Assembly: GCA_963695575.1 (NCBI GenBank)
Contig: CAVOGS010000014.1
Location: forward strand, 328,114-392,113
DNA: 64,000 bases
Direction: 5' to 3'
Origin: an uncultured Chloroflexia bacterium
GTDB taxonomy: Bacteria; Chloroflexota; Anaerolineae; Anaerolineales; UBA11858
The notes beneath the pieces are model-generated. The model did no database searches, was not told where the DNA came from, and saw only the letters and a list, made by a program, of their open reading frames with translations. Every line of letters starts with the position of its first letter. Position 1 is the stretch's first letter. The translations under genes and the position numbers were made by a program. This document shows, piece by piece, positions 4,066-43,928 of the stretch.

Positions 4066-4097
4066 GGTTGGGTAACAGAGCAAGATCGCAACTTAAA

Positions 4098-4326
4098 AAC
4101 TAAATCCGGTAAAGGTGCCACTTATCCCTGATGGGATGGCTCAATGGCGAAGTCTGTGAAATTCAGACGCTGACCCGCAACTGTAATTCGGGAATTAGAA
4201 TTCTCGATAAGCCAGGTCGACCGCCTTTACTGACTGTTCATAACATTCTCGCGGAAAGGAGGTGTGAACTTGGAATATATCATCCATATTCAACTACCTT
4301 CCCTGTCCGAGACAGGGATTTTTTGT
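4098..4326 (+). promoter_or_regulatory. Cobalamin (B12) riboswitch with terminator expression platform
   Basis: Core elements GUGAAAUUCAGACGCUGACCCGCAACUGUAA (4156-4185) and the B12-box-like AUAAGCCAGGUCGACCGCC (4207-4225). It is followed by an intrinsic terminator and then a BtuF-type binding-protein gene. Confidence 0.75.
4301..4326 (+). terminator. Intrinsic terminator (riboswitch OFF structure)
   Basis: CCCTGTC-cga-GACAGGG (4301-4317) followed by ATTTTTTGTTT. Confidence 0.7.
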
Positions 4327-15834: not shown

Positions 15835-17161
15835 TTAGTGATTATTTATAACTGGGTTCCTCAGCCAGTCTGTAATTACTTCCCCTTCAGGACCTAAAAG
15901 GTCCTCGATAGCCATTCTGAAAGCATTTAAATAATCTACTAGTTGATCGTACTCAAGTTTTCTGGTGCTGATCAAACCAGAGATCCAATTCAGACTAAAC
16001 CGCAGGTAGTTGATATCTCCCAGCGTCAGTGCTGCGGATATATCCTGGATCAATTGCTGATTGGCCTCAAAGATATCGAGCGTGTCGAAGGTTTTTTGGC
16101 TGTCTGGCAAATTGAGACGCAGGGTACGGTCCAGCTCGGGACGGATTTCTTTCAGTCTCTCCACCAGCTTGCTGTTTTGAGGCGGGTGAGGTTTGATATT
16201 GATCCCGATCCCATTATTTTTGATCAGATCTTCAATCATGGAGATCGCCTCTGGTAAGTTATTCCCAAGGTAAATACCAGGCATTGTTTTAGAAAGATCC
16301 GGGATTTGATCAAAAATCCATCCCCCAAATGCTGCCGGGATTTGTTTCTCTGCCAAGTATATTCAAAGTATTCAATAACGCAGCTGTAGTCGAAAGTCTG
16401 GATGCTGTTAGAACTGCAAGGGCTGGTTTGATCTCCAAAATGACTTCACTTAAGCGCTCATTTGGCACATTAGCACCAAGATAAACAACATCCCAGCCCC
16501 TGTGTTTTAAGAGTAGGGTTAATATCAACAGGGTTATTGTATGCTGTTCACCCGGCGCACAAGCAATCATAATTCTTTGGGCATGAACGGGATTGGGCGC
16601 GGCAGTGATCAGCGTTTCGACCTTTCTAATTGTGATCTCAGAAATAAAATGCTCCTGCTGGACAGTTGCCTCTCCCTGATACCAGAGCTGGCCTACTTTA
16701 TCGATAGAAGGCAGGATCACGGCTGTTAAAACGGTTTCTAATGGAAATTGGGCGAAGGCCAACGATAAGATCTGTTCAGCGTGAGGCTCGTCATAACCCA
16801 GGCAGTATTCAATCCATTTTTCCTGGAGGTCCTCGAGCGTATCAATATCATCATCCATTTGAACCAGCGAATCTACTTGCCTCGCCGGGGGTTTATCTTG
16901 TTGTAAGGGGTCGTTCCCTGAATTAACCAGATCCATCCAGTAGTTAACGGCCTGGCTGATGCGCATCCCTTCTTTTTGCCTTGCCACCAGCCATTTTAAA
17001 GTGGATAGATCATAATCAGAATATAATCGGTGTCCACCCTCTGATCGGGCAGGTAAGGGGAGTTTATAACGCCGCTCCCAGGCACGGATCGTATCGGCTT
17101 TGAGTCCCGTTTCCTGGAGGATCAAATTGAGGTTATAACGCGGTTTTCTTGAAATTGCCAT
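15835..17161 (-). pseudogene. carH: CarH/LitR-type MerR-family, B12-binding photoreceptor regulator (one frameshift, C-terminal extension)
   Basis: MerR HTH (LILQETGLKADTIRAWERRYKLPLPARSEGGHRLYSDYDL). Wx9EH motif LWYQGEATVQQEH. B12-binding Rossmann region with GEQHTITLL...GWDVVYLGANVP. ORFs 16310..17161 and 15835..16356 join with a 1-nt correction near 16353 (...LNIL/AEKQIPAAFGGW...). Confidence 0.75.
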
Positions 17162-17264: not shown

Positions 17265-17327
17265 AGGCACAACTTACTGGTACTGAATTATTGGAAATGA
17301 AAATATTAGTTGATGGAGATAAATAAA

Positions 17328-18075
17328 ATGAAAAAAATTACAACTGCTCAAATTGTCACGGTTCTGGCAACGATAATTACCATAACGATCAATGCCCTGG
17401 CGAATATTCTGCCCTTAAATGGATTAAATACCGGAGAGATCTCTGATCGTTTTCAGATCTACTTTGTACCTGCTGGGTATGTATTTTCGATCTGGGGTTT
17501 GATCTACCTGAGTTTGGTGGTCTATACGGTATTTCAATTCTTGCCCAAACAGGCTGATAATCCAGTCTTAAAAAAGATCGCTCCATATTATTGGCTTGCT
17601 AGTTTGGCTAATTCGATCTGGATTTTCCTGTGGCATTACGAAGTATTTTCACTGACCCTGGCAGCGATGGTGGTGATATTAATCGCGCTGCTGCTTATTT
17701 ACAAAGCGCTGGCTGGATCTACCGGACTGGAAAAATGGTTAGTGAAACTGCCTTTCAGTCTATACCTGGGTTGGATCAGTGTGGCAACGATCGCGAACAC
17801 CTCCCAGACTTTATTCTTCTTATGATTGGAATGGGTGGGGAATTGCCCCTGAGATTTGGACAATGGGGATGTTAGTGATCGCTGGTTTGCTGGGTTGGAT
17901 GATGTCCTGGCGCGAAAATGACACACCTTATGTATTAGTTTTGATCTGGGCTTTTATTGGTATTACAGTAAGTCAAGCAGGAACAGCCCTGGTGGTAAAT
18001 ACCGCTTGGGCAGTCGTTGTTCTCCTGGTAATAGCAATAATTGCTGGCGTTTATAAGTACAAGAAAGTGTATTAG
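17328..18075 (+). pseudogene. tspO: TspO/MBR-family (tryptophan-rich sensory protein-like) membrane protein, one frameshift
   Basis: FVPAGYVFSIWGLIYLSL..., NSIWIFLWHY..., LPFSLYLGWISVATIAN resemble the TspO helices. ORF 17310..17825 continues in the +1 frame as ORF 17779..18075. ATG 17328 has a GGAG RBS 8 nt upstream. Confidence 0.6.
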
Positions 18076-18084
18076 GAGATAATA

Positions 18085-18921
18085 ATGACTATAAAAATTG
18101 TGACGGATTCAACCTGTGATTTACCTGAAACTGTGATCAAGGAATTGGGTATCACAGTGATTCCTCTCTATATCAATATAGGCAATGAAGGTTTCCTGGA
18201 CGGGATTGATATCTCTCGCCGGGAATTCTATACCAATCTGGCTGATTATCCCGTTCATCCCACAACTGGAACGCCCGGTACATCCGCTTTCTTTAAAGCA
18301 TTTGATGATTTGGTGGATCAAGGGGCAGACGAGATCATGACTATCCACATCTCTGAAAGTTTAAGCGCGACTGTTGATGTCGCCAGGACCGCTGCCAAGG
18401 AATATCAAAAAGTCCCAGTTACGGTCAGGGATTCTGGCCAGCTTTCAACTGGAACGGGTTTTCAGGTCGAGCTGGCAGCCAAAATGGCAAATGAGGGCAA
18501 ATCGCTGGATGAGATCCTGGTCGCATTGGACAGCCTTCGCTCCCGCACCTTTGTAACAGCAGGCTTGGACACGCTGGAGTTTCTAAGGCGCAGCGGACGG
18601 ATGAACCGCTTTATGACCGGGATTGGTAGTTTAATCCAGCTGAAACCAATATTAACTATGAAAGACGGCAAACCAGGGTCCGATCGGGTCAGGACCTCCA
18701 TCCGGGCTGAAAAAAGGCTTATTTCTTTATTAGAAGAGCATCTACCTATTGAGAAATTTGCTCTGGTACACTCCAATGCTCATAAAAAAGCAGAAGAATT
18801 TAAGGCAAAAATCGAGAAATATTTACCTGATGGAGAGATCTTCTCGATGGATATTACACCTGTGATTGGGGCTCATCTTGGTCCTGGGGCGGTAGGGTTT
18901 GCGGTCATTACAAAAGCCTGA
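18085..18921 (+). CDS. DegV-family fatty-acid-binding protein
   Basis: MTIKIVTDSTCDLPETVIKELGITVIPLYI... is the canonical DegV N-terminus; 278 aa. Confidence 0.85.
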   Translation: MTIKIVTDSTCDLPETVIKELGITVIPLYINIGNEGFLDGIDISRREFYTNLADYPVHPTTGTPGTSAFFKAFDDLVDQGADEIMTIHISESLSATVDVARTAAKEYQKVPVTVRDSGQLSTGTGFQVELAAKMANEGKSLDEILVALDSLRSRTFVTAGLDTLEFLRRSGRMNRFMTGIGSLIQLKPILTMKDGKPGSDRVRTSIRAEKRLISLLEEHLPIEKFALVHSNAHKKAEEFKAKIEKYLPDGEIFSMDITPVIGAHLGPGAVGFAVITKA

Positions 18922-18962
18922 CTAATGGGTTTCAGAGCATAAAAAAACAAAAAGGAAAATCA

Positions 18963-19844
18963 ATGAAAAAAGAAAATATTCGCACTTACCTGGGTATTCT
19001 GGTTATCGTCTTGCTGGGACTGGGCGTTGCATTGGCTGGCAGCCAGGGTGGTTATAAAGTAGGCGGAATGCCAATCTATGCCCTGGGCGTCGGATTAGCG
19101 TTTTTGATCCAATGGATTGTATTTGTTCCTGCCTATAAAAATAGGACCGAAAAATACTTCGACTTGACTGGCAGCATCACCTATATTTCTGTGATGATAA
19201 TGGCTGTGATCTTAAGTCCGGAAAGAGATATCAGGACCTGGCTGTTATTGGGATTGGTAGCAATCTGGGCTCTCCGCCTGGGAACATTTTTGTTCCAGCG
19301 CATCAAGAAAGCCGGAGAAGATCGGCGATTCAGAGAGATAAAAGAATCTTTTCCGCGATTCCTTCAAACCTGGACCATTCAGGGTTTATGGGTGACTTTT
19401 TCCCTGGCAGCGGCCCTGGTTGTGGTTACCTCGACAAAACGGGTTGGAGTGGATATTTATCTTGTGCTGGGTTTGTTGGTCTGGTTGATTGGATTTGGAA
19501 TGGAAGCTTTTGCGGATAGTCAAAAGAATCAATTTCGCCAGGATCCAAAAAATGAGGGGAAATTCATCCAAACTGGTTTATGGGCCTGGTCCAGGCATCC
19601 TAATTATTTTGGAGAGATTGTTTTATGGGTAGGCGTTCTGATCATATCTTTACCTGTGCTGGTAGGCTGGCAGTGGGTAGCCTTGATTTCCCCGATTTTC
19701 ATCACGATCTTATTGACCAGGATCAGCGGCGTGCCAATGCTGGAAAAGCGCGCCGATGAGAAGTGGGGCGGTCAAGAGGATTATGAAAACTATAAACAGA
19801 ACACTTCGGTCCTGATTCCGATGCCTCCCAAAGGAGATAAATAA
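18963..19844 (+). CDS. DUF1295 / steroid-5-alpha-reductase-like membrane protein
   Basis: Polytopic; C-terminal WSRHPNYFGEIVLWVGVLI motif is typical of DUF1295. Confidence 0.7.
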   Translation: MKKENIRTYLGILVIVLLGLGVALAGSQGGYKVGGMPIYALGVGLAFLIQWIVFVPAYKNRTEKYFDLTGSITYISVMIMAVILSPERDIRTWLLLGLVAIWALRLGTFLFQRIKKAGEDRRFREIKESFPRFLQTWTIQGLWVTFSLAAALVVVTSTKRVGVDIYLVLGLLVWLIGFGMEAFADSQKNQFRQDPKNEGKFIQTGLWAWSRHPNYFGEIVLWVGVLIISLPVLVGWQWVALISPIFITILLTRISGVPMLEKRADEKWGGQEDYENYKQNTSVLIPMPPKGDK

Positions 19845-20185
19845 TGGTCCTGCAAATCTTAAAAATCATTGGGGCAATAGCCACGATTATCACCGGCGTG
19901 GTATCCCTTTTCTGGCCGCTAAAGGTGCCAGGTTTTACAGGATTGGAGCCAATTGGCGGAAGAGGTATTACCGAAATCAGAACCATTTTGGGAGCACTTT
20001 TTGTTGGTCTTGGTGCTGTTATCCTGTATTACCGCAGCCCGGAAGCCTATACGATCCTGGGGGTCACTTATCTGGCCATGGCTTTGGTCCGCGGGATATC
20101 AATCATTGTAGATCGCTCTGCAATCTCTTCTAATATCATCAGTTTTATCGTTGAATTGGTGTTTGGAATCTTGCTGGTTTTATAA
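19844..20185 (+). CDS. Small membrane protein (possibly DUF4345-like)
   Basis: 113 aa with 4 hydrophobic segments. Its start overlaps the preceding stop (TAATG). The family call is tentative. Confidence 0.5.
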   Translation: MVLQILKIIGAIATIITGVVSLFWPLKVPGFTGLEPIGGRGITEIRTILGALFVGLGAVILYYRSPEAYTILGVTYLAMALVRGISIIVDRSAISSNIISFIVELVFGILLVL

Positions 20186-20197
20186 AGGAAAATCAAG

Positions 20198-20530
20198 ATG
20201 AAAATTGCTAAAGTTTTAACCCTGCTGGGTGTGCTGGCAATGACTGCGGTCCTGGTTTATGGTTTTACCGCCGGAAATTTCTCTGTGGATGGGGGAAAGA
20301 TCCTCCAGAATCCCTGGGGAATCGTTTCCCTGGTGGATCTTTATACTGGGTTTTTCCTGTTCTCAGCCTGGATACTCTTCCGGGAAGGATTTACCGTGAA
20401 ATCCGTTGTCTGGGTGGTATTGATGATGGTCCTGGGATTTTTTACAGCCAGTTTATATGCCCTGATCGCTCTTTATCAGAGCGATGGGGATTGGCAAAAG
20501 TTCTGGATGGGAACCCGAGTACATGAATAG
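20198..20530 (+). CDS. Small membrane protein (possibly DUF1475-like)
   Basis: 110 aa; NPWGIVSLVDLYTGFFLFSAWILFRE. The family call is tentative. Confidence 0.5.
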   Translation: MKIAKVLTLLGVLAMTAVLVYGFTAGNFSVDGGKILQNPWGIVSLVDLYTGFFLFSAWILFREGFTVKSVVWVVLMMVLGFFTASLYALIALYQSDGDWQKFWMGTRVHE

Positions 20531-21200
20531 AATTAAAGAGCTGCAAGATGAGTTAAGAACCGTCTTCGCCGGCAGGGGCCTAAAATTGCTTGATGTAATT
20601 TTGCCCCTGCTGGTATTTTTAGGGTTCAATCCCTGGGTTGGACTGATACCAGCCTTGCTGGCTTCGATTGGAACAGCAGTCCTCTTCTTTGTAATTCGAA
20701 TTATTAAAAAAGACAATTTAGTCTATGCGCTGAGCGGCTTGTTGGCAGTTTTGCTTGCCGCAGGATTTGCAGTGTTGAGTGATTCTGGGGTGGGATTTTT
20801 CCTGCCTGGATTGATTTCCGGCGCCTTAACTGTGCTGCTTTGTTTGGGGAGCATCTTACTTAAAAAACCGCTGGCAGCGCTTTCCAGCCATCTCACCCGC
20901 AGCTGGCCTCTTGCCTGGTATTGGCACGATAGGATCAGGCCGGCATATTCAGAGGTTACCCTGTTCTGGGCGCTGGGATTTGGGTTGAGGTTGGGCTTGG
21001 AATCCTGGTTCTATTTTGCTGGTTCAGTTTCATCTCTGGGACTGATAAGGACATTGATGGGGTGGCCTTATACGATCTTGCTTTTAGTGCTCAGTTATCT
21101 GTACGGGATGTGGCGTTTGGGAGTATTGGCAGGGCCAAGTGTGGAAGAATTTCAAGCTGAGAAACCTGAACCCTGGATGGGGCAAAAAAAAGGGTTTTAA
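20523..21200 (+). CDS. Hypothetical polytopic membrane protein
   Basis: ORF 20484..21200. I prefer the internal ATG 20523 (MNRIKELQ...), which overlaps the upstream stop by 8 nt. About 6 hydrophobic helices. Confidence 0.5.
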   Translation: MNRIKELQDELRTVFAGRGLKLLDVILPLLVFLGFNPWVGLIPALLASIGTAVLFFVIRIIKKDNLVYALSGLLAVLLAAGFAVLSDSGVGFFLPGLISGALTVLLCLGSILLKKPLAALSSHLTRSWPLAWYWHDRIRPAYSEVTLFWALGFGLRLGLESWFYFAGSVSSLGLIRTLMGWPYTILLLVLSYLYGMWRLGVLAGPSVEEFQAEKPEPWMGQKKGF

Positions 21201-21368
21201 CCAAACAGTAATAATTCTTGTCGAGTATTGACTAAATGAAGAGACCCTTACTAACCCTGATTGTCTTGATTAAAAGGGGACATATATCCTTTAAGCGGAA
21301 CCTTGTCCCCTGATTTGGTAAGATAGAGTTCATTAATGTATATCTAAATTCAACAGGTAGGTTTAAGG

Positions 21369-22373
21369 ATGATCCGCAATCAGTGGTATGTTGTTCTGGA
21401 ATCAAACCAGGTCCGAAAAAAACCGATTGGCGTGACACGCCTGGGCGAAAAACTGGTTTTTTGGCGGGACACGGCTGGAAAGGTCAACTGCGCTGTTGAT
21501 CGCTGTCCTCATCGGGGGATCTCATTAAGCCTTGGACAGGTCCACGATGATCATTTGCAGTGCCCCTTTCACGGGTTTGAATATGATAACAGCGGCCGGT
21601 GTGTCTATGTCCCTGCCAATGGCAGAGCTGGGAGAATACCATCCTCGCTGCTTTTGTCATCATATCCAACCCATGAGGAGCAGGGTTTTATCTGGATCTG
21701 GTGGGGACATCAGCCCCTGGAAAATTTACAGCCCCCTGTGTTCTTCGATAATCTGGATCAGTCTTTTGTATACAGCACTGTCCAGGATCCATGGAAAAGC
21801 CATTACTCGCGGGCGATTGAAAATCAGTTAGATGTTGTGCATCTTCCTTTTATTCACCATAATACAATTGGCCGGGGAAATAAAACCGTTATTGATGGTC
21901 CGCTGGTGACTTGGGAAGGTGACCAGAAATTACTGGTTTATGTATTCAATCGACTGGATGACGGTTCTCCACCAAAAAAACCCGCTGACCTCAGTTTGAA
22001 GGAAGCCCGGAGTGTTCATTTGGAATTTATAATGCCCAATCTCTGGCAAAACTTCATCAGTGATGATGTCCGGGTTGTGATCGCTTTTACACCTGTTGAT
22101 GAAAATAACTCGATCTTGTACCTGCGCTTTTACCAGAAATTTGTTCGTTTTCCATTCCTGGGCAAGCTGATAACCTGGTTTGGCATGCCGATGAACTTAA
22201 TTATCGCACACCAGGATCGCCGGGTGGTTATCACCCACAAACCTCAACCAAGTTCTTTTAAATCTGATGAAAAATTGATTCAGGGGGACCTGCCAATCAT
22301 CGAATATCGGAAAAAACGATCCGATTTGAAAGCCCTGGCACTGGAGCTAAAAAATAATGATCAACAGAACTGA
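21369..22373 (+). CDS. Rieske [2Fe-2S] domain non-haem-iron oxygenase family protein
   Basis: CPHRGISLSLG...CPFHGFEY Rieske ligands (CxH...CxxH). The C-terminal catalytic-like domain has DVVHLPFIHH. Confidence 0.8.
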   Translation: MIRNQWYVVLESNQVRKKPIGVTRLGEKLVFWRDTAGKVNCAVDRCPHRGISLSLGQVHDDHLQCPFHGFEYDNSGRCVYVPANGRAGRIPSSLLLSSYPTHEEQGFIWIWWGHQPLENLQPPVFFDNLDQSFVYSTVQDPWKSHYSRAIENQLDVVHLPFIHHNTIGRGNKTVIDGPLVTWEGDQKLLVYVFNRLDDGSPPKKPADLSLKEARSVHLEFIMPNLWQNFISDDVRVVIAFTPVDENNSILYLRFYQKFVRFPFLGKLITWFGMPMNLIIAHQDRRVVITHKPQPSSFKSDEKLIQGDLPIIEYRKKRSDLKALALELKNNDQQN

Positions 22374-23841
22374 GATGAAGGTCCTCGTTACGGGCGCTAC
22401 CGGTTACATCGGGGGAAGATTGGTTCCGGCATTGCTGGAAGAAGGCTATCAGGTCAGGGTATTGGTCCGGGATCCAGAACGGCTGGCAGGCAGAAGTTGG
22501 CTGACGTCTGTTGAGGTCGTTAAGGGGGATGTTCTGCAGATCGAAACCCTGCATTCAGCCCTGAAAGATATTACCGCAGCATATTATCTGATACACAGCA
22601 TGGCAAGTGGCGCTGATTTTCACCAGCGAGATTTGCTGGCTGCCAAGAACTTCAGCAATGCTGCAAAAATAGCAGATGTAAAACAGATCATCTATCTGGG
22701 CGGCCTGGGCGACTATCAAGCTGACTTATCGGAACATCTAAAGTCCCGCCAGGAAACAGGGAAAGTGTTGGCTCAATCAGGGGTTCCGGTAACTGAATTT
22801 CGGGCTGCCGTCATTGTTGGCTCTGGAAGCATTTCGTTTGAAATGATCCGTTATCTTACCGAAAGAGTGCCGGTGATGATCTGTCCGAAGTGGGTCTTTA
22901 CAAAAACCCAACCCATCGCACTCAAGGACGTATTGGCTTACCTGCTGGCAGCCCTGACTACTCCCGGTTCACTTAATCAGATCATCGAAATTGGCGGCAA
23001 AGATGTGATTACATACGGCAAGATGATGCTTGGGTACGCTGAGGGTCGAGGATTAAAAAGGATCCTTGTTCCAGTACCCTTCCTTACTCCAAAACTTTCG
23101 GCATATTGGGTGCATTGGGTCACTCCTGTCTCAGCAGAGATCGCTCATGCGCTGGTTGAAGGACTGAGAAATGAAGTGCTGGTTACTGACCCTTCAGCCG
23201 CTAAGATCTTTCCCCAAATTGATCCTGTTGACTATCAAACAGCCGTTCAAATTGCCCTAGAAAAATTGGCTGCATCTGAAGTGGAAACCCGTTGGACGGA
23301 TTCTCTCACTTCGAGTTTAGGAAAACAAGATCCAGTCCAATTAACCAGCCTGGAGGGTTTGATCATTGAAAACCGCCAGATTAACATAAAAGCGGGGAAT
23401 GGTGAGGTATTCCGGACTTTAACAAGGTTAGGCGGTGAGAAGGGCTGGCTGTATTTCAATTGGGCCTGGCAAATTCGCGGCCTGATCGACCGTGCCATGG
23501 GTGGAGTTGGCCTGCGCAGAGGCAGGAGGGATGAAAATGAACTGCGTGTCGGGGATGCGCTGGATTTTTGGCGGGTCGAGGAGATCCTTGCGGATAAAAA
23601 GCTTCGGTTGCGCTCAGAAATGATCACCCCGGGAGAAGCATGGCTTCAGTATGATCTGGAGAGCGGGGAGGTTGGTGAGGTTAATTTGCGGCAGACAGCA
23701 TATTTTGCACCCAAAGGTTTACCGGGATTATTATACTGGTATGTGTTGTATCCCATTCACGCTTTGGTTTTCTCAGGTCTGATCCGGGGAATAAAGGATA
23801 AAACTGAAAAAAACCAGAGAAATAGGAGGGACATTGCCTGA
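22357..23841 (+). CDS. NAD(P)-binding SDR/NmrA-like protein fused to a DUF2867 domain
   Basis: KVLVTGATGYIGGRLVPALLEEGYQVRVLVRD. The C-terminus (WRVEEI...LRLRSEMITPGEAWLQY) resembles DUF2867. Confidence 0.7.
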   Translation: MINRTEMKVLVTGATGYIGGRLVPALLEEGYQVRVLVRDPERLAGRSWLTSVEVVKGDVLQIETLHSALKDITAAYYLIHSMASGADFHQRDLLAAKNFSNAAKIADVKQIIYLGGLGDYQADLSEHLKSRQETGKVLAQSGVPVTEFRAAVIVGSGSISFEMIRYLTERVPVMICPKWVFTKTQPIALKDVLAYLLAALTTPGSLNQIIEIGGKDVITYGKMMLGYAEGRGLKRILVPVPFLTPKLSAYWVHWVTPVSAEIAHALVEGLRNEVLVTDPSAAKIFPQIDPVDYQTAVQIALEKLAASEVETRWTDSLTSSLGKQDPVQLTSLEGLIIENRQINIKAGNGEVFRTLTRLGGEKGWLYFNWAWQIRGLIDRAMGGVGLRRGRRDENELRVGDALDFWRVEEILADKKLRLRSEMITPGEAWLQYDLESGEVGEVNLRQTAYFAPKGLPGLLYWYVLYPIHALVFSGLIRGIKDKTEKNQRNRRDIA

Positions 23842-24301
23842 TCTAAAGGAATATAAGGATTTTCTGGAAAATGTTAAGATACCTATTCGTTTGGCTGTTA
23901 AGACCGAGTCCGGATGGCCAATGATGCTTTCGCTTTGGTTTATTTATGTGGATGGGTCTTTATACTGCGCAACTCGTAAACAAGCTCGGGTAGTAGCATA
24001 CATACTGAATAATGAGGAATGTGCTTTTGAAATAGCCGGGGATCAGCCGCCTTATTGTGGAATTCGAGGGCAGGCCCGGGCCAGTATTGACCAGCAGCGC
24101 GGTCTAGAAATTCTGGAATTGCTTTTGGATAGATATTTGGGGGGGCGGGATAACAACCTGGCTGAAACGCTACTCAAAAATAGTTCTGATGAGGTCGCAA
24201 TCCGATTGGATCCTATTAATCTATTCACCTGGAACTTTTCAGCCAGAATGAAGGACGTTGGTCCAGGACCAGATTTATTGAATGTGAAAGTGTGTCCCTG
24301 A
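23834..24301 (+). CDS. Pyridoxamine-5'-phosphate-oxidase-like (split-barrel flavin-binding) protein
   Basis: 155 aa. TTG start preceded by AGGAGGG. The overall pattern fits the PPOX fold; the call is tentative. Confidence 0.45.
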   Translation: MPDLKEYKDFLENVKIPIRLAVKTESGWPMMLSLWFIYVDGSLYCATRKQARVVAYILNNEECAFEIAGDQPPYCGIRGQARASIDQQRGLEILELLLDRYLGGRDNNLAETLLKNSSDEVAIRLDPINLFTWNFSARMKDVGPGPDLLNVKVCP

Positions 24302-24349
24302 TGGGAATAGAGGGAAACAATCAACTATGATTATTTACAGGAAGGCACT

Positions 24350-24832
24350 ATGCCCAGAGTTGACTTGAATGTCATTGCACCGGACTTTTCTCTTGAAGCC
24401 TGGGATGGTAAAGCGGTCAATCTATCAGATTTTAAATCTGAAAAGAATGTACTGTTGGTCTTTAATCGCGGCTTTCTTTGACCGTTCTGCCGCCGGCATA
24501 TGGCGCAGTTGCGCGATGATTTTGATAAGTTCCAGGAATTGGACGCTGAAATAGTAGTGCTTGGCCCCGAGGGCAGAGGGGCTTTTCGAACATATTGGGA
24601 AGAGAATGATCTGCCCTTCATCGGATTGCCTGATCCAACCCATTCAGTGTTGAAGCTTTATGGGCAGAAAGTGAACTTGTTTAAATTTGGGCGTATGCCA
24701 GCCATGGTTATCATCGATCAAGCTGGTATGGTTCGATTTGTGCATTACGGTCATTCCATGTCTGATATCCCAACCAACGCTGATGTGCTTAAAACGCTTC
24801 AAACCCTCAATCAGGAGTCAGTAGAAGTATGA
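24350..24832 (+). CDS. AhpC/TSA (redoxin-fold) peroxiredoxin-like protein with in-frame TGA at the active-site Cys position (candidate selenocysteine, U-P-F-C)
   Basis: ATG 24350 (SD aggaagg, 24338-24344) and the listed ORF 24500..24832 are in the same frame. The only interruption is TGA 24479-24481: ...NVLLVFNRGFL[TGA]PFCRRHMAQLRDDF.... Stem-loops follow within 40 nt. Confidence 0.6.
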
Positions 24833-26184
24833 GCTCTATCTGGTGGATCCGGCGCGATCTGCGCCTTGGTGATAATTTGACCTTCCAAAAAGCGCTGGAG
24901 AATCCGCCAGTTCTGCCTGTGTATATACTCGATCCGCTGCTGATAAAAAACGCACCTGACCGCAGGCTGAATTTCCTGTACCAGAACCTCCAATCCCTTG
25001 CCCAGGAATTACAAGCAAGGGGCAGTAAATTGGTTATCAGGACAGGGAAACCGGTTGAGGTGCTCAAAAACTTACTGGAGGAGACCGGGGCATCTTCTAT
25101 CTATGCAGAAGAGGATTTTACGCCCTATGCTCGTGTGCGAAGTGTTTTAATTGGAAGCTGCCTGCCGCTGAAATTGATCCAGGGCCAGCTCGGTCTTCAT
25201 CCTCTGGAGGCCCGTAAAGCAAATGACAAACCTTATCGGGTTTTCACGCCATTCAAGAGAAATTGGCTGGGTATCAATCCCACCATCGACTTGCTGCCTG
25301 TCCCTGATCAGATCCCGACCATCGAAGGTATTCTTTCGGATCTGATCCCAAGTGGAAAAGATGAACCTCTTTTTCCGGCCAGTGAAGAAGCGGCCCGCCA
25401 GCGCTTGGAAAAATTCATTCGCACCAAAATAGATTTTTACCATCTTAATCGGGATCGGATGGACTTGGATGGCTCCTCAAATTTATCGCCATATATCCGA
25501 TTCGGCGTTTTGGGATTGAGGACAGCACTGCACTACGGCATGAAGATGCTGCATGATGTGAACAGCAGGAAAAACTACGAAGGGGTTCAAACCTGGTTAA
25601 GTGAATTATTATGGCGTGAATTTTATATTCATATCATGTTCCATTTTCCCGAATCAAGAACTCAGAATTTCCGTTCTTTATATGATCAACTTCCCTGGAG
25701 GAATAAGGAGGCGGATTTCCAGGCCTGGAAGGATGGCCTGACCGGGTATCCTGTAGTGGATGCCGGTATGCGGCAGTTAAAACAGACCGGCTGGATGCAT
25801 AATAGAGCAAGAATGATCACAGCATCTTTTCTTGTCAAGGATCTGCTTGTTGATTGGCGCTGGGGTGAAAAATGGTTTCAAGAAACCCTGCTTGATGGGG
25901 ATCTGGCAGTCAATAATGGAAGCTGGCAATGGGTGGCTGGAACAGGTACAGATGCCGCACCCTTTTTCAGGATCTTTAACCCTGTCCGCCAAAGCAGAAA
26001 ATTCGATCCAACCACTAAATATATTCGGAAATGGGTTCCTGAATTAGACCATCTGGATAATGATGATATTCACGCCCCCTGGGAGAAAAGAATTAAAGTG
26101 CCAGGATATCCATCCCCGATCGTTGATCATAAAATTTCGCGGGAGCGGGCTCTGCTTGCCTATCGTATAGCCAGCGGTGATTAA
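24829..26184 (+). CDS. phr: Deoxyribodipyrimidine (CPD) photolyase, class I type
   Basis: IWWIRRDLRLGDN at the N-terminus. FAD-binding region TGYPVVDAGMRQLKQTGWMHNRARMITASFLVKDL...DGDLAVNNGSWQWVAGTGTDAAPFFRIFNP. The start overlaps the preceding stop (ATGA). Confidence 0.9.
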   Translation: MSSIWWIRRDLRLGDNLTFQKALENPPVLPVYILDPLLIKNAPDRRLNFLYQNLQSLAQELQARGSKLVIRTGKPVEVLKNLLEETGASSIYAEEDFTPYARVRSVLIGSCLPLKLIQGQLGLHPLEARKANDKPYRVFTPFKRNWLGINPTIDLLPVPDQIPTIEGILSDLIPSGKDEPLFPASEEAARQRLEKFIRTKIDFYHLNRDRMDLDGSSNLSPYIRFGVLGLRTALHYGMKMLHDVNSRKNYEGVQTWLSELLWREFYIHIMFHFPESRTQNFRSLYDQLPWRNKEADFQAWKDGLTGYPVVDAGMRQLKQTGWMHNRARMITASFLVKDLLVDWRWGEKWFQETLLDGDLAVNNGSWQWVAGTGTDAAPFFRIFNPVRQSRKFDPTTKYIRKWVPELDHLDNDDIHAPWEKRIKVPGYPSPIVDHKISRERALLAYRIASGD

Positions 26185-26505: not shown

Positions 26506-27943
26506 ATGAATCATGAAGGACTTTATATGTCTGAATTAATGGACCTGACAGCAGAGTATCAAAATGTCTGGAATAAGGTAAACGAGATGATGGATGTCAG
26601 TTATGGATGTGCTGAATCCTTTGTCGCTGCTGTTGGGGAATACCTCTGGGGAGATGTGGATGATTCCATCAAGATGATCTCCACGGGTTTCAGCGGGGGA
26701 GTGGGCGGGAGCCATGAAGAACTTTGTGGCGGCGTAAGCGGCGCAGCCATTATTATTGGTTTGTTATATGGTAGAACCACTAATGATGAAGCGATGATGG
26801 TGAAGTGCAAACGATTGATCTCCGAACACAGAGATCGATTCGTTCAGGAATTTGGAACAACAACCTGTCAGGAATTACGTGATGCGGAGTTTGGTTCGGA
26901 TGAAAAGAATCCCTGTTCAGCATTGATCGCTCCAGCTGCATTTATGCTGCTGGATATCCTGGAAGAAGAAAAAGAAAGGGAAAAATTGGCTGTTGAATTG
27001 GCAAATCATGTGGAATGCGCTGATGTCCTGCCCCTTAATGAGTTTAAAGAACAGTTTCAGGAAGGTAGCCTTGAAGTGTTGTTGGCAGAGTTGGAGCGGA
27101 TTGATCTGCCGCACGATCACCGTAATTGGATCGGCGATCAGATCAACAAGCTTGGGGATGGCCGGGAAGGAATAGGTATATTGACTGACAATCTCCCTGA
27201 TATTAAGTTTTTACCTGTTCCTGGAGGGAGCCTGGAAATTGAAAGGGCAGGTAAATTTGATGTAAATGAGTTTTTGATATCAAAATACCCAATCACATCC
27301 TTGCAGTTCGAGGTTTTTCTCGACGATCCAGATGGTTTCAAGAATCCGGAGTGGTGGGAAAGCCTGGGGGTTAAATCAGAACAATTGGCTGGAGCGGGAG
27401 AGCAAAGATTCAGAAGTGAGAATTACCCCCGGGATAATGTGAGTTGGTTTGATGCGGTTGCATTTTGTCGCTGGCTGAATCACCAATTACTAACGAAGGA
27501 TGACCGTCGAGATCTGCCGGTCCTTGATTATCATAGAAAATAAGGGTTGGGAGATCCGGCTGCCAACCGAGTGGGAATGGCAAATGGCTGCTACAGGCGG
27601 ACTACCCAACAGGAAATTCCCCTGGGGTCTGGAATGGAATGACAGCCTGGCCCATACAAAACATAATCAGTTGAATAAATCCATGGCGGTTGGAATGTAC
27701 CCCGCTGGTGTCTCGCCAATTGGCGCGCTGGATATGAGCGGCAATGTTTGGGAATGGTGTTTAAATTGTTATGAGAATCCTGAAGACCTGGCTTTGTCCA
27801 GGATGGATCGCCGTGTGTTAAGAGGAGGGTCCTGGTACCATTGGGGCTCCTATGCCCATACCGATATGCGCAGTCGATATTATCCGGATCACCGTTATAA
27901 CGCAGGCGGCTTCAGGGTGGCTTGCGGAAAACCTATAGCATAA
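26506..27943 (+). pseudogene. C_GCAxxG_C_C-family domain fused to a formylglycine-generating-enzyme (FGE-sulfatase/SUMF1) domain, one frameshift
   Basis: N-terminus: SYGCAESFVAAVGEY, LCGGVSGAAIIIG, TTCQELR, NPCSALIAP. C-terminus: NVSWFDAVAFCRWLN | RLPTEWEWQMAA...GNVWEWC...RVLRGGSW...GFRVA, split between ORFs 26506..27543 and 27500..27943. Confidence 0.7.
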
Positions 27944-42492: not shown

Positions 42493-43810
42493 ATGTTTAA
42501 GAATAAACTGTTTATTGTGCTCAGCCTGATCCTGGTGGCAGCCTTTGCGCTGTCCGCCTGTGGCGGAGCCGCCCCGGCCGAAGAAGTTATGGAAGAAGAA
42601 GTGGCCGAAGAAGTTATGGAAGAAGAAGTGGCCGAAGAAGAAGTGGCTGAAGAAGAAGTCGTTGTAGCTGAGAGCCCAGGTTTACAGATGGAAGCAGCAG
42701 CTGTTGTTCAGGAATTCTGGTCCGATGCAGAATACGAAGAATCAATCACCTGGACCGATGCTGATGTTCTCAACCCGGAAGCTCCTTTGTACCTGCAGTC
42801 CCTGCTTGGACAACAAAGTTGACACGACTCAGTACAAGATGGATCCTCCCTATGATGTCTGCTTCTCCAACGCTGGTGTCAATAACACCTGGCGTGTGAC
42901 CGGCTACGTGACCATGCGTGAGCAGGTTGAGCAGCTGCGGACTGAAGGTCTGGTCAAGAACTTCATCCACGTCGATGCTGAGGGTTCCGATGAGAAACAG
43001 ATCGCTGACATTGAAGACCTGCTCGCAGGTGGTCAATGCGATGTGTTGATCGTTTCCCCCAACTCCACCAATGCTTTGACTCCCATTGTGGAGCAGGCTT
43101 GTGAAGTGCTGCCGGTGGTTGTATTTGACCGCGGCGTGCTGACTGATTGCCCGGTTACCTTCCTGAAGACCGTTGGTGGCTACAAGTTCGGTTACGATGG
43201 TGCTCAATTCATCGTCGAGAACCTGCCCGATGGCGGCGACGTTTTGGCTCTCCGCATCCTCCCCGGTGTGGATGTTCTTGAACAGCGTTGGGGCGCAGCC
43301 CTGGAAGTTTTCGCTGTCAATCCGCAGCTGAACGTGATCGGTGTGGAATTTGGTGCCTACAGTAATCCTGACACCAAAGGCATTGTTGCTGACTACATCG
43401 ATCGTTTTGGTAATATCGATGCTGTCTGGATGGATGCTGGTGGTACCGCAGTCGGTGTTCTGGAAGCCTTCGAAGATGCCGGATTGCCCTTCCCGATCAT
43501 GGTTGGCGAAGATCAGATGGACTACCTGAAGTTCTGGAAAGAGAACGATCTGACCGCGATTGCTCCCACCTTCCCGACCTATCAGTGGCGAACTGCCGTT
43601 CTGGCAGCCGTCATGATCCTGCAGGGTGAACCTGTGGATGCCCGCTGGGTAGTCCCGCAGCCGAATGTCACCCAGGACAATCTGGATCAGTTCTACCTGC
43701 CCGACATGCCGCCTCTGTACTACGCTTTTAGCGGCGCCGAGGACATGACCAACTGGCCGGATGCCTGGATGGAACTTGACACAACCAAATACGTGGATGT
43801 GATCGACTAG
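42493..43810 (+). pseudogene. Sugar ABC substrate-binding lipoprotein (RbsB/Peripla_BP type) with acidic repeat tether, one frameshift
   Basis: ATG 42493 (AAGGAG RBS) encodes MFKNKLFIVLSLILVAAFALSAC. An acidic linker follows. The binding domain (YDVCFSNAGVNNTWRV...) is in the +1 frame (ORF 42704..43810). The shift is near 42805. Confidence 0.75.
42577..42660 (+). repeat. In-frame tandem repeat encoding an acidic linker
   Basis: The 27-nt unit gccgaagaagttatggaagaagaagtg (AEEVMEEEV) occurs exactly twice (42577-42603, 42604-42630). Two 15-nt AEEEV units follow. Confidence 0.9.
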
Positions 43811-43824
43811 TTCATGGATACCTG

Positions 43825-43851
43825 GAGCCCGTCCGTTTTATGGGCGGGCTC
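43825..43851 (+). terminator. Hairpin immediately after the binding-protein gene (possible terminator/stabiliser)
   Basis: GAGCCCGTCC-gttttat-GGGCGGGCTC, a 10-bp stem with one G-U pair. No clear T tract follows. Confidence 0.45.
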
Positions 43852-43928
43852 AACTGCAGTTTGGAATATTGTTTTATTGATTGCGGGCAACTTTCATCGA
43901 TCATTTCATTAAAAGCCCTTAATCAACT

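What the first reader, a model, noticed from the sequence alone, without database searches (positions are those of the whole stretch)
24350..24832. Peroxiredoxin-like gene with an in-frame TGA exactly at the redox Cys: candidate selenoprotein (U-P-F-C) with downstream stem-loops
The ORF track reports only 24500..24832. ATG 24350 has a good SD (aggaagg) and lies in the same reading frame, and the only interruption is one TGA at 24479-24481.

The joined product is a full-length AhpC/TSA (redoxin-fold) protein: MPRVDLNVIAPDFSLEAWDGKAVNLSDFKSEKNVLLVFNRGFL-[TGA]-PFCRRHMAQLRDDFDKFQELDAEIVVLG.... The TGA sits in the column where this family carries the first Cys of the (W)CPxC redox motif. UxxC is the classical arrangement in bacterial thiol-oxidoreductase selenoproteins.

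Two candidate SECIS-like hairpins follow:
- CUG-C-CGCC [GGCAUAU] GGCG-CAG (24487-24508). The loop starts with GG, 16 nt after the U of UGA.
- GCGC [AGUU] GCGC (24503-24514), with a possible A-U/G-U lower stem extending to 24498-24520.

The errors that riddle this window are 1-nt indels. An indel cannot produce a same-frame TGA with intact flanks, so an artefact is a less likely explanation here. The gene sits directly upstream of, and translationally coupled (ATGA) to, a photolyase in a putative light or oxidative-stress cluster.
Basis: partly seen in the sequence, partly recalled or inferred. Interest (0 to 1): 0.8.

Follow-up and report, generated by a model that had tools for sequence, protein, structure and literature searches.

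The report
Selenocysteine redoxin gene beside photolyase
The "stop" codon inside this small peroxiredoxin-like gene is almost certainly a real selenocysteine codon with its own RNA signal, so this is an ordinary but routinely mis-annotated member of a known class of bacterial selenoproteins.

Summary
ATG 24350 to the stop at 24830-24832 is one reading frame, interrupted only by TGA 24479-24481. The joined 160-aa product is an AhpC/TSA-fold protein.

The TGA is not an error. The same column is TGA in all 80 related genome loci I fetched, mostly Anaerolineae/Chloroflexota MAGs plus Smithella/Syntrophaceae and others. The terminal stop of the same gene is a mix of TAA, TGA and TAG. Rare homologues carry TGC or TGT (Cys) at that column.

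Downstream, the codons GCG-CAG-TTG are invariant in 82 of 82 sequences. Every other conserved residue in the gene uses its synonymous codons freely. It meets all four published bacterial SECIS criteria.

Sec44 aligns with the Thr/Ser of the peroxiredoxin TxxC motif, and Cys47 aligns with the peroxidatic Cys.

Photolyase lies immediately downstream in 11 other loci and within 10 kb in 33 of 80.

Sec machinery (selA, selB, selC, selD) could not be checked for this genome.

Verdict: a genuine UxxC "Prx-like" selenoprotein, a new member of a known kind.

The parts
24339..24345 (+). Shine-Dalgarno-like AGGAAGG, 4 nt upstream of the start codon
   Evidence: Read directly from the sequence.
24350..24832 (+). 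Full selenoprotein CDS. It encodes 160 aa with Sec at residue 44, an AhpC/TSA (thioredoxin-fold) domain and the motif F-L-U-P-F-C.
   Evidence: Translation. Pfam PF00578 75.1 bits and PF08534 62.2 bits. Full-length homologues at 55-93% identity.
24479..24481 (+). Sec codon UGA (residue 44)
   Evidence: TGA at this column in every Sec-form locus (82 of 82 by regex, plus L073). Cys (TGC/TGT) in 8 distinct homologues. The terminal stops of the same gene are mixed.
24488..24490 (+). Cys47 codon (TGC). It is the partner of Sec in UxxC and aligns with the peroxidatic Cys of BCP-type peroxiredoxins.
   Evidence: PDB alignments with 2ywn and 2cx3. TGC in 81 of 82 against a 62-65% TGC background.
24488..24498 (+). 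Small conserved 5' hairpin UGC(C)-NNN-(G)GCA. It is a possible accessory or spacer element of the SECIS.
   Evidence: C12-G18 pair kept in 75 of 77. The third base of codon +5 is G whatever the amino acid: CGG/AGG only for Arg, AAG 13 vs AAA 1, GCG 10 vs GCA 1. Also predicted by RNAalifold.
24499..24518 (+). SECIS hairpin in this window: UAU-G-GCGC [AGUU] GCGC-G-AUG. The core is 24503-24514 and the loop is 24507-24510, with G30 and U31 counted from the U of UGA.
   Evidence: Bases 23-35 after the UGA are invariant in 77 distinct sequences. Zero synonymous variation at GCG/CAG/TTG. Pairs kept in 98% of cells. Energy -8.4 kcal/mol here and -10.8 for the consensus. Meets the bSECIS criteria quoted.
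24487..24508 (+). It can form in this window but is not conserved, and it is mutually exclusive with the SECIS hairpin.
   Evidence: Inner pairs broken in 32-42 of 77. Only 19 of 77 homologues fold this region at or below -7.5 kcal/mol.
24692..24694 (+). Arg115 codon, in the invariant GRMPA motif. It aligns near the conserved active-site Arg of peroxiredoxins.
   Evidence: Invariant column. Alignment to 3drn.
24829..26184 (+). DNA photolyase gene. Its start overlaps the selenoprotein's stop (ATGA).
   Evidence: Pfam FAD_binding_7 290.9 bits and DNA_photolyase 116 bits. Immediately downstream in 11 other loci.
17310..24301 (+). Co-directional upstream genes of the same cluster: unknown ORF, DegV, DUF1295, DUF4345, DUF1475, DUF3159, Rieske/VanA_C, NAD-epimerase/DUF2867, and a weak Pyridox_ox_2-like protein.
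   Evidence: ORF lists. Pfam. Precomputed Pfam of the syntenic L001.
16310..17161 (-). Divergent MerR + B12-binding regulator (CarH-like architecture). It is a candidate light-responsive regulator of the cluster.
   Evidence: Pfam MerR_1, B12-binding_2 and B12-binding. The same gene sits at the same place in L001 and L002.

Best explanation
24350-24832 is one gene for a 160-residue selenoprotein of the AhpC/TSA (thioredoxin-fold) superfamily.

Proposed recoding mechanism (inferred from the bacterial SelB mechanism): when the ribosome reaches UGA 24479-24481, the hairpin 24499-24518 recruits SelB carrying Sec-tRNA(Sec), and selenocysteine is inserted instead of termination. The hairpin core is GCGC[AGUU]GCGC, and its loop begins 25 nt after the UGA. 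It presents G and U at positions 2-3 of a tetraloop.

The product carries Sec44-Pro-Phe-Cys47 at the N-terminus of the first helix. This placement is shown by a structure model of a Cys homologue.

Proposed chemistry (inferred): the selenolate attacks an oxidised substrate, a peroxide or a disulfide. Cys47 then resolves the intermediate into an intramolecular selenenylsulfide, which a thioredoxin-type reductant re-reduces.

Proposed role (inferred from conserved gene neighbourhood only): in this organism, an Anaerolineae-like Chloroflexota bacterium, the gene is the penultimate gene of a co-directional cluster. The cluster ends in a translationally coupled photolyase and lies next to a divergent CarH-like B12/MerR regulator. 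The likely role is therefore defence against light-associated oxidative damage.
For: Sec codon:
- TGA is at the same column in the window, L001-L003 and all 80 genome loci.
- The terminal stop of the same gene is TAA 38, TGA 28, TAG 15, so TGA is a working stop in these genomes.
- Homologues with TGC or TGT in the column exist: 8 distinct.
- AGA and TTA variants are single-base neighbours of TGA.

SECIS:
- Codons +8, +9 and +10 are GCG, CAG and TTG in 82 of 82. Codon +11 is only CGC or CGT.
- All other invariant residues show near-maximal synonymous entropy.
- 68 of the 80 loci match a retrieval pattern that lies outside this region, so the retrieval did not select for these codons.
- Helix pairs are kept in 98% of cells, and the only variation is wobble-compatible: C36 to U, and A38 to G.
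- The hairpin region folds at or below -7.5 kcal/mol in 75 of 77.
- All four bSECIS model criteria quoted from PMC13188914 are met.
- 3 of 8 Cys forms carry hairpin-breaking synonymous changes, against 0 of 77 Sec forms (Fisher p about 6e-4, my calculation).

Protein:
- Pfam AhpC-TSA.
- PDB alignments place U44 on the T/S and C47 on the Cys of TxxC in BCP peroxiredoxins.
- The AlphaFold model of Cys homologue P0007 has pLDDT 93.8, with a helix starting at residue 45.
- The nearest folds are Bcp1/Bcp4 (TM 0.82) and ResA.

Context:
- Photolyase is adjacent in 11 other loci and within the flanks in 33 of 80.
- A CarH-like regulator is present.

Trait:
- Anaerolinea thermophila and Caldilinea aerophila are listed as SelD+, SelA+, SelB+ with 4 and 3 selenoproteins (PMC5029168 supplements).
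Against: - No selA, selB, selD or tRNA-Sec was found in the 64-kb window or in about 1.3 Mb of fetched loci. The rest of the genome could not be searched, so Sec decoding in this organism is assumed, not shown.
- There is no compensatory covariation in the hairpin. The evidence is conservation, not covariation.
- Five of eight Cys forms, including two distant ones (L089, L092), keep most of the hairpin bases. Part of the constraint might therefore be independent of Sec.
- In this window the competing first hairpin is thermodynamically more stable than the SECIS hairpin (-10.3 to -13.0 vs -8.4 kcal/mol). The G24-C37 pair is also lost here.
- No Rfam family matched the region.
- The substrate and the link to light are inferred only.
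Confidence: 0.88

Rival explanations
1. Artefact or pseudogene: the TGA is a sequencing error or an inactivating mutation of an ancestral TGC/TGT Cys codon in an error-rich assembly.
For: The window and related long-read MAGs do contain frameshift-split genes, for example 26506-27543 / 27500-27943 compared with one 471-aa gene in L001. TGA is one substitution away from TGC or TGT.
Against: The same TGA is present in all 80 independent genome loci from many studies and sequencing platforms, at 59-93% protein identity. Both flanks stay under purifying selection. The internal stop is never TAA or TAG, although the terminal stop often is.
Confidence: 0.01
2. Genuine stop: two separate products are made, a 43-aa peptide and a 110-aa protein that re-initiates at ATG 24500. 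Gene callers annotate it this way.
For: Public gene calls give exactly this split: 43 of the top 120 database hits start at MAQLR. ATG 24500 is conserved.
Against: - The split would cut a single thioredoxin fold between strand beta3 and helix alpha1 and remove the redox motif.
- Cys-containing homologues are continuous.
- The internal stop is TGA in 100% of cases.
- The Met is part of the conserved HMAQLR helix, which is also present in the Cys forms.
Confidence: 0.03
3. Recoding without selenium: the UGA is read through by near-cognate Trp or Cys tRNA, or by Cys-charged tRNA(Sec). The conserved hairpin then serves as a read-through or pausing signal rather than a SelB-binding SECIS.
For: - Sec machinery was not demonstrated for this genome.
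- UGA followed by C is a leaky context (general knowledge).
- Several Cys forms keep the hairpin bases, which hints at a function not tied to Sec.
Against: - The column is Cys in homologues, and the motif UxxC is the classical selenoprotein arrangement (PMC2398784 Table 2).
- The hairpin fits the SelB-type bSECIS model, including G-U in the tetraloop.
- The host lineages (Anaerolineae, Syntrophaceae) are documented Sec users.
- Cys forms show decay of the hairpin (3 of 8).
Confidence: 0.05
4. It is a selenoprotein, but the functional SECIS in this organism is the reader's first hairpin (24487-24508, loop GGCAUAU) rather than 24499-24518.
For: - In this window and about 13 relatives with CGC-CGG at codons +4/+5, the first hairpin is the minimum-free-energy fold: -10.3 kcal/mol locally and -13.0 extended, against -8.4.
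- Its loop starts with GG, and G18 is conserved in 75 of 77.
Against: - Its inner pairs are broken in 32-42 of 77 homologues.
- Its loop begins 13 nt after the UGA, outside the 16-37 nt window.
- It leaves the invariance of U31, U32 and G33-C36 (TTG, CGY) unexplained.
- G18 is explained equally well by the small hairpin 24488-24498.
Confidence: 0.08

Closest known systems
Prx-like thiol:disulfide oxidoreductase selenoproteins (PF00578, UxxC). First predicted in Geobacter and Syntrophus; called 'Prx-like 1' in the ocean metagenome surveys.
   Same: AhpC/TSA domain and Sec in a UxxC motif with Cys-containing homologues. It occurs in Syntrophaceae and other anaerobes and has a coding-region bacterial SECIS just after the UGA.
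   Different: Direct comparison with the reference protein (WP_010940744.1) was not possible. This clade is overwhelmingly Sec, with few Cys forms. It is centred on Anaerolineae and is often linked to photolyase, features not mentioned in the papers read.
NCBIfam NF040769 'SelL-related redox protein'
   Same: It is the best NCBIfam match. The N-terminal 100 residues, including the redox motif, align (77 bits, residues 10-105 to profile 3-99).
   Different: The score is below the curated cut-off of 120, and only 99 of 173 profile positions are covered. It is a relative, not a member. Fish SelL has UxxU (my recollection; not among the passages read).
BCP/PrxQ-type peroxiredoxins (e.g. Sulfolobus Bcp1 3drn, Bcp4 3hjp, Aeropyrum 2cx3)
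   Same: Closest solved folds (TM 0.82). A Cys sits at the peroxidatic position (Cys47) and an Arg aligns with the active-site Arg region.
   Different: The Pro and Thr/Ser of PxxxT/SxxC are replaced: Asn/Arg at the Pro position and Sec at the Thr position. The centre is a vicinal U-x-x-C as in thioredoxin-like oxidoreductases.
ResA/TlpA-type CxxC thiol-disulfide oxidoreductases
   Same: Same fold (TM 0.70-0.74, 28-29% identity), with a dithiol-type xxC pair at the helix N-terminus.
   Different: No signal or membrane anchor is evident, the first Cys is Sec, and the Prx-like Arg is retained.
E. coli fdhF / Moorella SelB-binding SECIS hairpin
   Same: A hairpin in the coding sequence just 3' of the UGA, with G-U at positions 2-3 of a tetraloop. 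The loop here is AGUU; in fdhF it is GGUC (fdhF from memory of the literature). It fits the generic bSECIS model.
   Different: The loop lies 25 nt from the UGA, compared with 18 nt in fdhF. There is no obvious bulged U. A second small hairpin occupies the spacer. No Rfam model matches.

Membership tests
Bacterial selenoprotein gene (Sec-UGA plus bSECIS) | In-frame UGA aligned with Cys in homologues | tested here: met
   Eight distinct homologues have TGC or TGT at the column.
Bacterial selenoprotein gene (Sec-UGA plus bSECIS) | UGA conserved among orthologues, with flanks conserved on both sides | tested here: met
   TGA in all 80 genome loci plus L002, L003 and the window. Terminal stops are mixed.
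Bacterial selenoprotein gene (Sec-UGA plus bSECIS) | bSECIS model: apical loop 3-9 nt, upper stem 4-16 bp, G in the first two loop positions, 16-37 nt between UGA and loop, MFE at or below -7.5 kcal/mol (PMC13188914) | tested here: met
   Loop AGUU (4 nt, G at position 2 followed by U). Stem is 4 bp + mismatch + 3 bp here and 6 bp in the consensus. Spacing is 25 nt. Energy is -8.4 kcal/mol here and -10.8 for the consensus.
Bacterial selenoprotein gene (Sec-UGA plus bSECIS) | selA, selB, selD and tRNA-Sec in the same genome | not testable with these tools
   None in the window or the fetched loci. The trait is documented in cultured Anaerolineae.
Bacterial selenoprotein gene (Sec-UGA plus bSECIS) | Selenium actually incorporated at the UGA | not testable with these tools
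   Needs 75Se labelling or mass spectrometry.
Pfam PF00578 AhpC/TSA | Score above the gathering threshold | tested here: met
   75.1 bits against a cut-off of 26.
Canonical peroxiredoxin (Prx) | PxxxT/SxxC active-site motif | tested here: not met
   The motif here is N-R-G-F-L-U-P-F-C. The Thr/Ser position is Sec and the Pro position is not Pro (alignments).
Canonical peroxiredoxin (Prx) | Cys at the peroxidatic position and a conserved active-site Arg | tested here: inconclusive
   Cys47 aligns with the Prx Cys. The invariant Arg115 aligns near the Arg of 3drn, but across a gapped stretch.
NCBIfam NF040769 SelL-related redox protein | Score at or above the curated cut-off of 120 bits | tested here: not met
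   77 bits, with partial coverage.
Prx-like thiol:disulfide oxidoreductase selenoprotein family (review table: PF00578, UxxC/UxxU) | PF00578 domain with Sec in UxxC | tested here: met
Prx-like thiol:disulfide oxidoreductase selenoprotein family | Orthology with the reference sequence WP_010940744.1 | not tested
Rfam RNA families | Covariance-model hit over the hairpin | tested here: not met
   No relevant family at E up to 10 in 24300-24700, and none at gathering score in the window.

The most novel reading that the evidence does not exclude
The most novel reading not excluded has two parts.

First, the invariant roughly 29-nt two-hairpin element (UGC..GCA followed by GGCGC-AGUU-GCGCC) may be a distinct bacterial SECIS class shared across phyla. 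It is retained even in several Cys forms, so it may have a second role such as pausing or regulating translation.

Second, the selenoprotein may be a dedicated redox partner of the translationally coupled photolyase within a CarH/B12 light-controlled operon. That would make it a selenium-dependent arm of the bacterial light-damage response.
Probability: 0.12. Interest if true: 0.6.

Novelty: new member of a known kind. Interest (0 to 1): 0.35.

Why it matters
The gene is a clean, well-supported example of a bacterial selenoprotein that current pipelines miss.

- Among the 120 closest database proteins, 43 are truncated at Met51. At least 60 have Trp at the Sec position; the one checked, P0001, is TGA in the DNA.
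- No NCBIfam model reaches its cut-off.
- The family is common in Anaerolineae from soil, sediment and wastewater metagenomes, so correcting it changes selenoproteome estimates for that abundant, poorly cultured class.
- The unusually rigid SECIS gives a simple DNA signature for finding the family.
- The recurrent pairing with photolyase and a CarH-like regulator gives a testable hypothesis about what a UxxC "Prx-like" selenoprotein does. The papers read here describe the functions of such Prx-like selenoproteins as unknown.

Tried and rejected
- Rfam at gathering score on the window and at E up to 10 on 24300-24700: no SECIS-type hit.
- ARAGORN on the window and 84 loci: no tRNA-Sec.
- tblastn with E. 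coli SelA, SelB and SelD against the window plus all loci: no hit at E up to 1e-3.
- Compensatory covariation in either hairpin: none, because the paired bases are invariant.
- Exact look-up of the window's 110-aa ORF to find its source contig: not on record.
The Cys homologue P0007 was used as a proxy.
- A crude scan of the window for other TGA-interrupted ORFs with Cys/Sec-type motifs: nothing convincing apart from this gene.
- The metagenome DNA-pattern scan for Cys forms: only 5 loci, too few for a strong control.
- Retrieval bias as the cause of the codon invariance: considered and rejected. 68 of 80 loci match an independent peptide pattern, and loci retrieved at the protein level show the same codons.
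- Genome-wide TGA reassignment (codes 4/25): considered and rejected, because TGA ends this same gene in 28 genomes.

Full report
**1. Observation**

- AGGAAGG (24339-24345) precedes ATG 24350.
- The frame runs to TGA 24830-24832 with one interruption, TGA 24479-24481.
- The mechanically listed ORFs are 24350-24481 (43 aa) and 24500-24832 (110 aa), in the same frame.
- The terminal TGA overlaps the ATG of the next gene (ATGA at 24829-24832).

With Cys substituted at the TGA, the 160-aa product scores 75.1 bits on Pfam AhpC-TSA (cut-off 26) and 62.2 bits on Redoxin. The best NCBIfam match is 'SelL-related redox protein' at 77 bits, below its 120-bit cut-off.

**2. Is the TGA real?**

A protein search returned two kinds of close relatives.
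- 43 proteins are about 107-113 aa, cover only the C-terminal two thirds, and begin at MAQLR.
- At least 60 are about 155 aa, full length, with Trp at the critical column.

The DNA of one 'Trp' protein (L003) shows TGA, so the Trp there comes from a gene caller that read TGA as Trp. I did not check the DNA of the other 'Trp' proteins.

Two long contigs encoding 'truncated' proteins have the same 43-aa ORF, then TGA, then the rest, in conserved synteny.

A scan of one genome per species returned 80 loci at 59-93% protein identity. They are mostly Anaerolineae/Chloroflexota MAGs. There are also bins labelled Smithella/Syntrophaceae, Acidobacteriota, Thermoleophilia and Spirochaetaceae.
- Every one has TGA at this column. 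L073 is a U-S-F-C variant.
- The terminal stop of the same gene is TAA 38, TGA 28 and TAG 15. TGA is therefore an ordinary stop in these genomes, yet the internal codon is never TAA or TAG.
- The closest relative, L004, is 93% identical and also has TGA. A sequencing error in this window is excluded.

Homologues with Cys exist: 8 distinct sequences with TGC or TGT. Two odd variants carry AGA and TTA, each one substitution from TGA.

**3. The RNA signal**

In 77 distinct sequences, the bases U23 to G35 (counting the U of UGA as 1) are invariant.

*Codon-level control within the gene.*
- Ala +8 is GCG, Gln +9 is CAG and Leu +10 is TTG in 82 of 82.
- Arg +11 is only CGC (68) or CGT (14).
- Every other invariant Ala, Leu, Arg, Gly, Pro or Val column uses 4-6 codons at near-maximal entropy.
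- This is not a retrieval bias. 68 of the 80 loci match a peptide pattern elsewhere in the protein, and loci fetched through protein identity show the same codons.

*The hairpin these bases form.*
- The consensus is U-G-G-C-G-C [A-G-U-U] G-C-G-C-C-A, which is columns 23-38.
- 98% of cells are paired. The only variation is wobble-compatible: C36 to U, and A38 to G.
- In the window the Gln-to-Asp change at codon +12 breaks G24-C37 but creates A22-U39. The window hairpin is therefore 24499-24518, at -8.4 kcal/mol. The consensus hairpin is -10.8 kcal/mol.

*Published bacterial SECIS model (PMC13188914).* All four criteria are met.

| Criterion | Required | Here |
|---|---|---|
| Apical loop | 3-9 nt | 4 nt (AGUU) |
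| Upper stem | 4-16 bp | 4 bp + mismatch + 3 bp (6 bp in consensus) |
| G in first two loop positions | yes | G at position 2, followed by U |
| UGA-to-loop spacing | 16-37 nt | 25 nt |
| MFE | at or below -7.5 kcal/mol | -8.4 (75 of 77 homologues pass) |

- It shares bases with this structure, so the two are mutually exclusive.
- Its inner pairs are broken in 32-42 of 77 homologues.
- Its loop starts 13 nt after the UGA.
- It does not explain the constraint on U31 to C36.
- It is nevertheless the more stable local fold in this particular window.

*A further constraint.*
- Cys47 is TGC in 81 of 82, against a 62-65% background.
- The third base of codon +5 is G in 75 of 77 whatever the amino acid.
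- Together these fit a small hairpin UGC(C)NNN(G)GCA at 24488-24498, which RNAalifold also predicts.

*Limits.* There is no compensatory covariation anywhere. The argument rests on synonymous-site conservation.

**4. Cys forms as a control**

- Five of the eight Cys forms keep the hairpin bases, including two distant ones.
- Three carry synonymous changes never seen in the Sec forms: TTA in L088, CGG in L089 and GCA in L090. Each breaks a stem pair.
- Three of 8 against 0 of 77 is significant (Fisher p about 6e-4, my calculation). It fits relaxation of the constraint after Sec-to-Cys conversion.
- The retention in L089 and L092 is not fully explained.

**5. The protein**

- PDB sequence alignments put Sec44 on the Thr/Ser, and Cys47 on the Cys, of the TxxC motif of BCP-type peroxiredoxins (2ywn, 2cx3, 3drn). 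The invariant Arg115 aligns near their active-site Arg.
- The window protein itself could not be submitted for modelling.
- A model of the Cys homologue P0007 is confident: pLDDT 93.8, pTM 0.90. It places residue 44 just before helix 45-56.
- The nearest solved folds are Sulfolobus Bcp1/Bcp4 (TM 0.82), ResA (TM about 0.72, 29% identity) and AhpE.
- The protein is thus a UxxC oxidoreductase on a peroxiredoxin scaffold. It is not a canonical PxxxTxxC peroxiredoxin.

**6. Context**

- The downstream gene is a DNA photolyase: FAD_binding_7 291 bits and DNA_photolyase 116 bits.
- Upstream on the same strand lie DegV, DUF1295, DUF4345, DUF1475, DUF3159, Rieske/VanA_C, NAD-epimerase/DUF2867 and a small Pyridox_ox_2-like protein.
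- These are preceded by a divergent MerR + B12-binding (CarH-like) regulator at 16310-17161.
- A photolyase homologue is immediately downstream of the selenoprotein gene in 11 other distinct loci. It lies within the fetched flanks in 33 of 80 loci. None of these are in the Smithella/Syntrophaceae bins.
- This supports, but does not prove, a role in light-associated oxidative stress.

**7. Sec machinery**

- No tRNA-Sec, selA, selB or selD is present in the window or in the fetched loci.
- The literature lists Anaerolinea thermophila UNI-1 and Caldilinea aerophila as SelD+, SelA+, SelB+, with 4 and 3 selenoproteins. It lists Syntrophus aciditrophicus with 16-19 selenoproteins, including a 'Prx-like thiol:disulfide oxidoreductase' (PMC5029168 supplements; PMC1794560).
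- tRNA-Sec of the 8/4 type is reported in Chloroflexi (PMC5389517).

**8. Comparison with what is known, and verdict**

- 'Prx-like' selenoproteins with PF00578 and UxxC have been catalogued since the first prokaryotic selenoproteome studies. They are abundant in metagenomes (PMC2398784 Table 2; PMC13188914 table).
- This gene fits that kind. It does not reach the cut-off of any NCBIfam selenoprotein model, and orthology with the reference Geobacter protein could not be tested.
- I rate it a genuine selenoprotein gene (confidence about 0.9), with the 24499-24518 hairpin as its SECIS (about 0.8).
- It is a new member of a known kind, of moderate-to-low interest.
- The points worth noting are the cross-phylum invariance of the SECIS, the near-absence of Cys forms, the photolyase/CarH linkage, and the systematic mis-annotation in public protein sets.

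Noticed in passing
window 43800-43880 (+): ARAGORN calls a tRNA-Ile with anticodon TAT. This is unusual for bacteria, which normally decode AUA with a lysidine-modified CAT tRNA.
   Followed up: no
window 4096-4242 (+): Cobalamin riboswitch, 62 bits against a gathering score of 31.5. It is of interest because a B12-binding CarH-like regulator lies 12 kb downstream.
   Followed up: no
window 16310-17161 (-) and 15835-16356 (-): A MerR + B12-binding (CarH-like) regulator, divergent from the cluster that ends in the selenoprotein and photolyase genes. It appears split by a frameshift here; the L001 homologue is a single 347-aa gene.
   Followed up: partly
window 26506-27543 and 27500-27943 (+): The C_GCAxxG_C_C and FGE-sulfatase domains are encoded by two overlapping ORFs here but by one 471-aa gene in L001.
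   Followed up: partly
database proteins P0001-P0120: Public gene calls mishandle this family. Of the top 120 hits, at least 60 have Trp at the Sec column; the one whose DNA was checked (P0001, L003) has TGA. A further 43 are truncated at Met51, and only 6-7 are true Cys forms.
   Followed up: yes
L096:465-467 and L097:1266-1268: Two homologues have AGA (Arg) and TTA (Leu) at the Sec column, with the SECIS bases intact. Both are single-base neighbours of TGA. They could be natural null alleles or assembly errors.
   Followed up: partly
L089 and L092 (Cys forms, metagenome contigs): Two distant Cys-containing relatives, one from a contig that looks GC-rich (composition not measured), still use GCG-CAG-TTG-CGS for Ala-Gln-Leu-Arg. 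This could be a fossil SECIS or a constraint independent of Sec. It is unexplained.
   Followed up: partly
L084:1942-2904 / L085:1916-2878: A reverse-transcriptase (RVT_1) gene lies directly upstream of the Cys-form homologue P0007.
   Followed up: no
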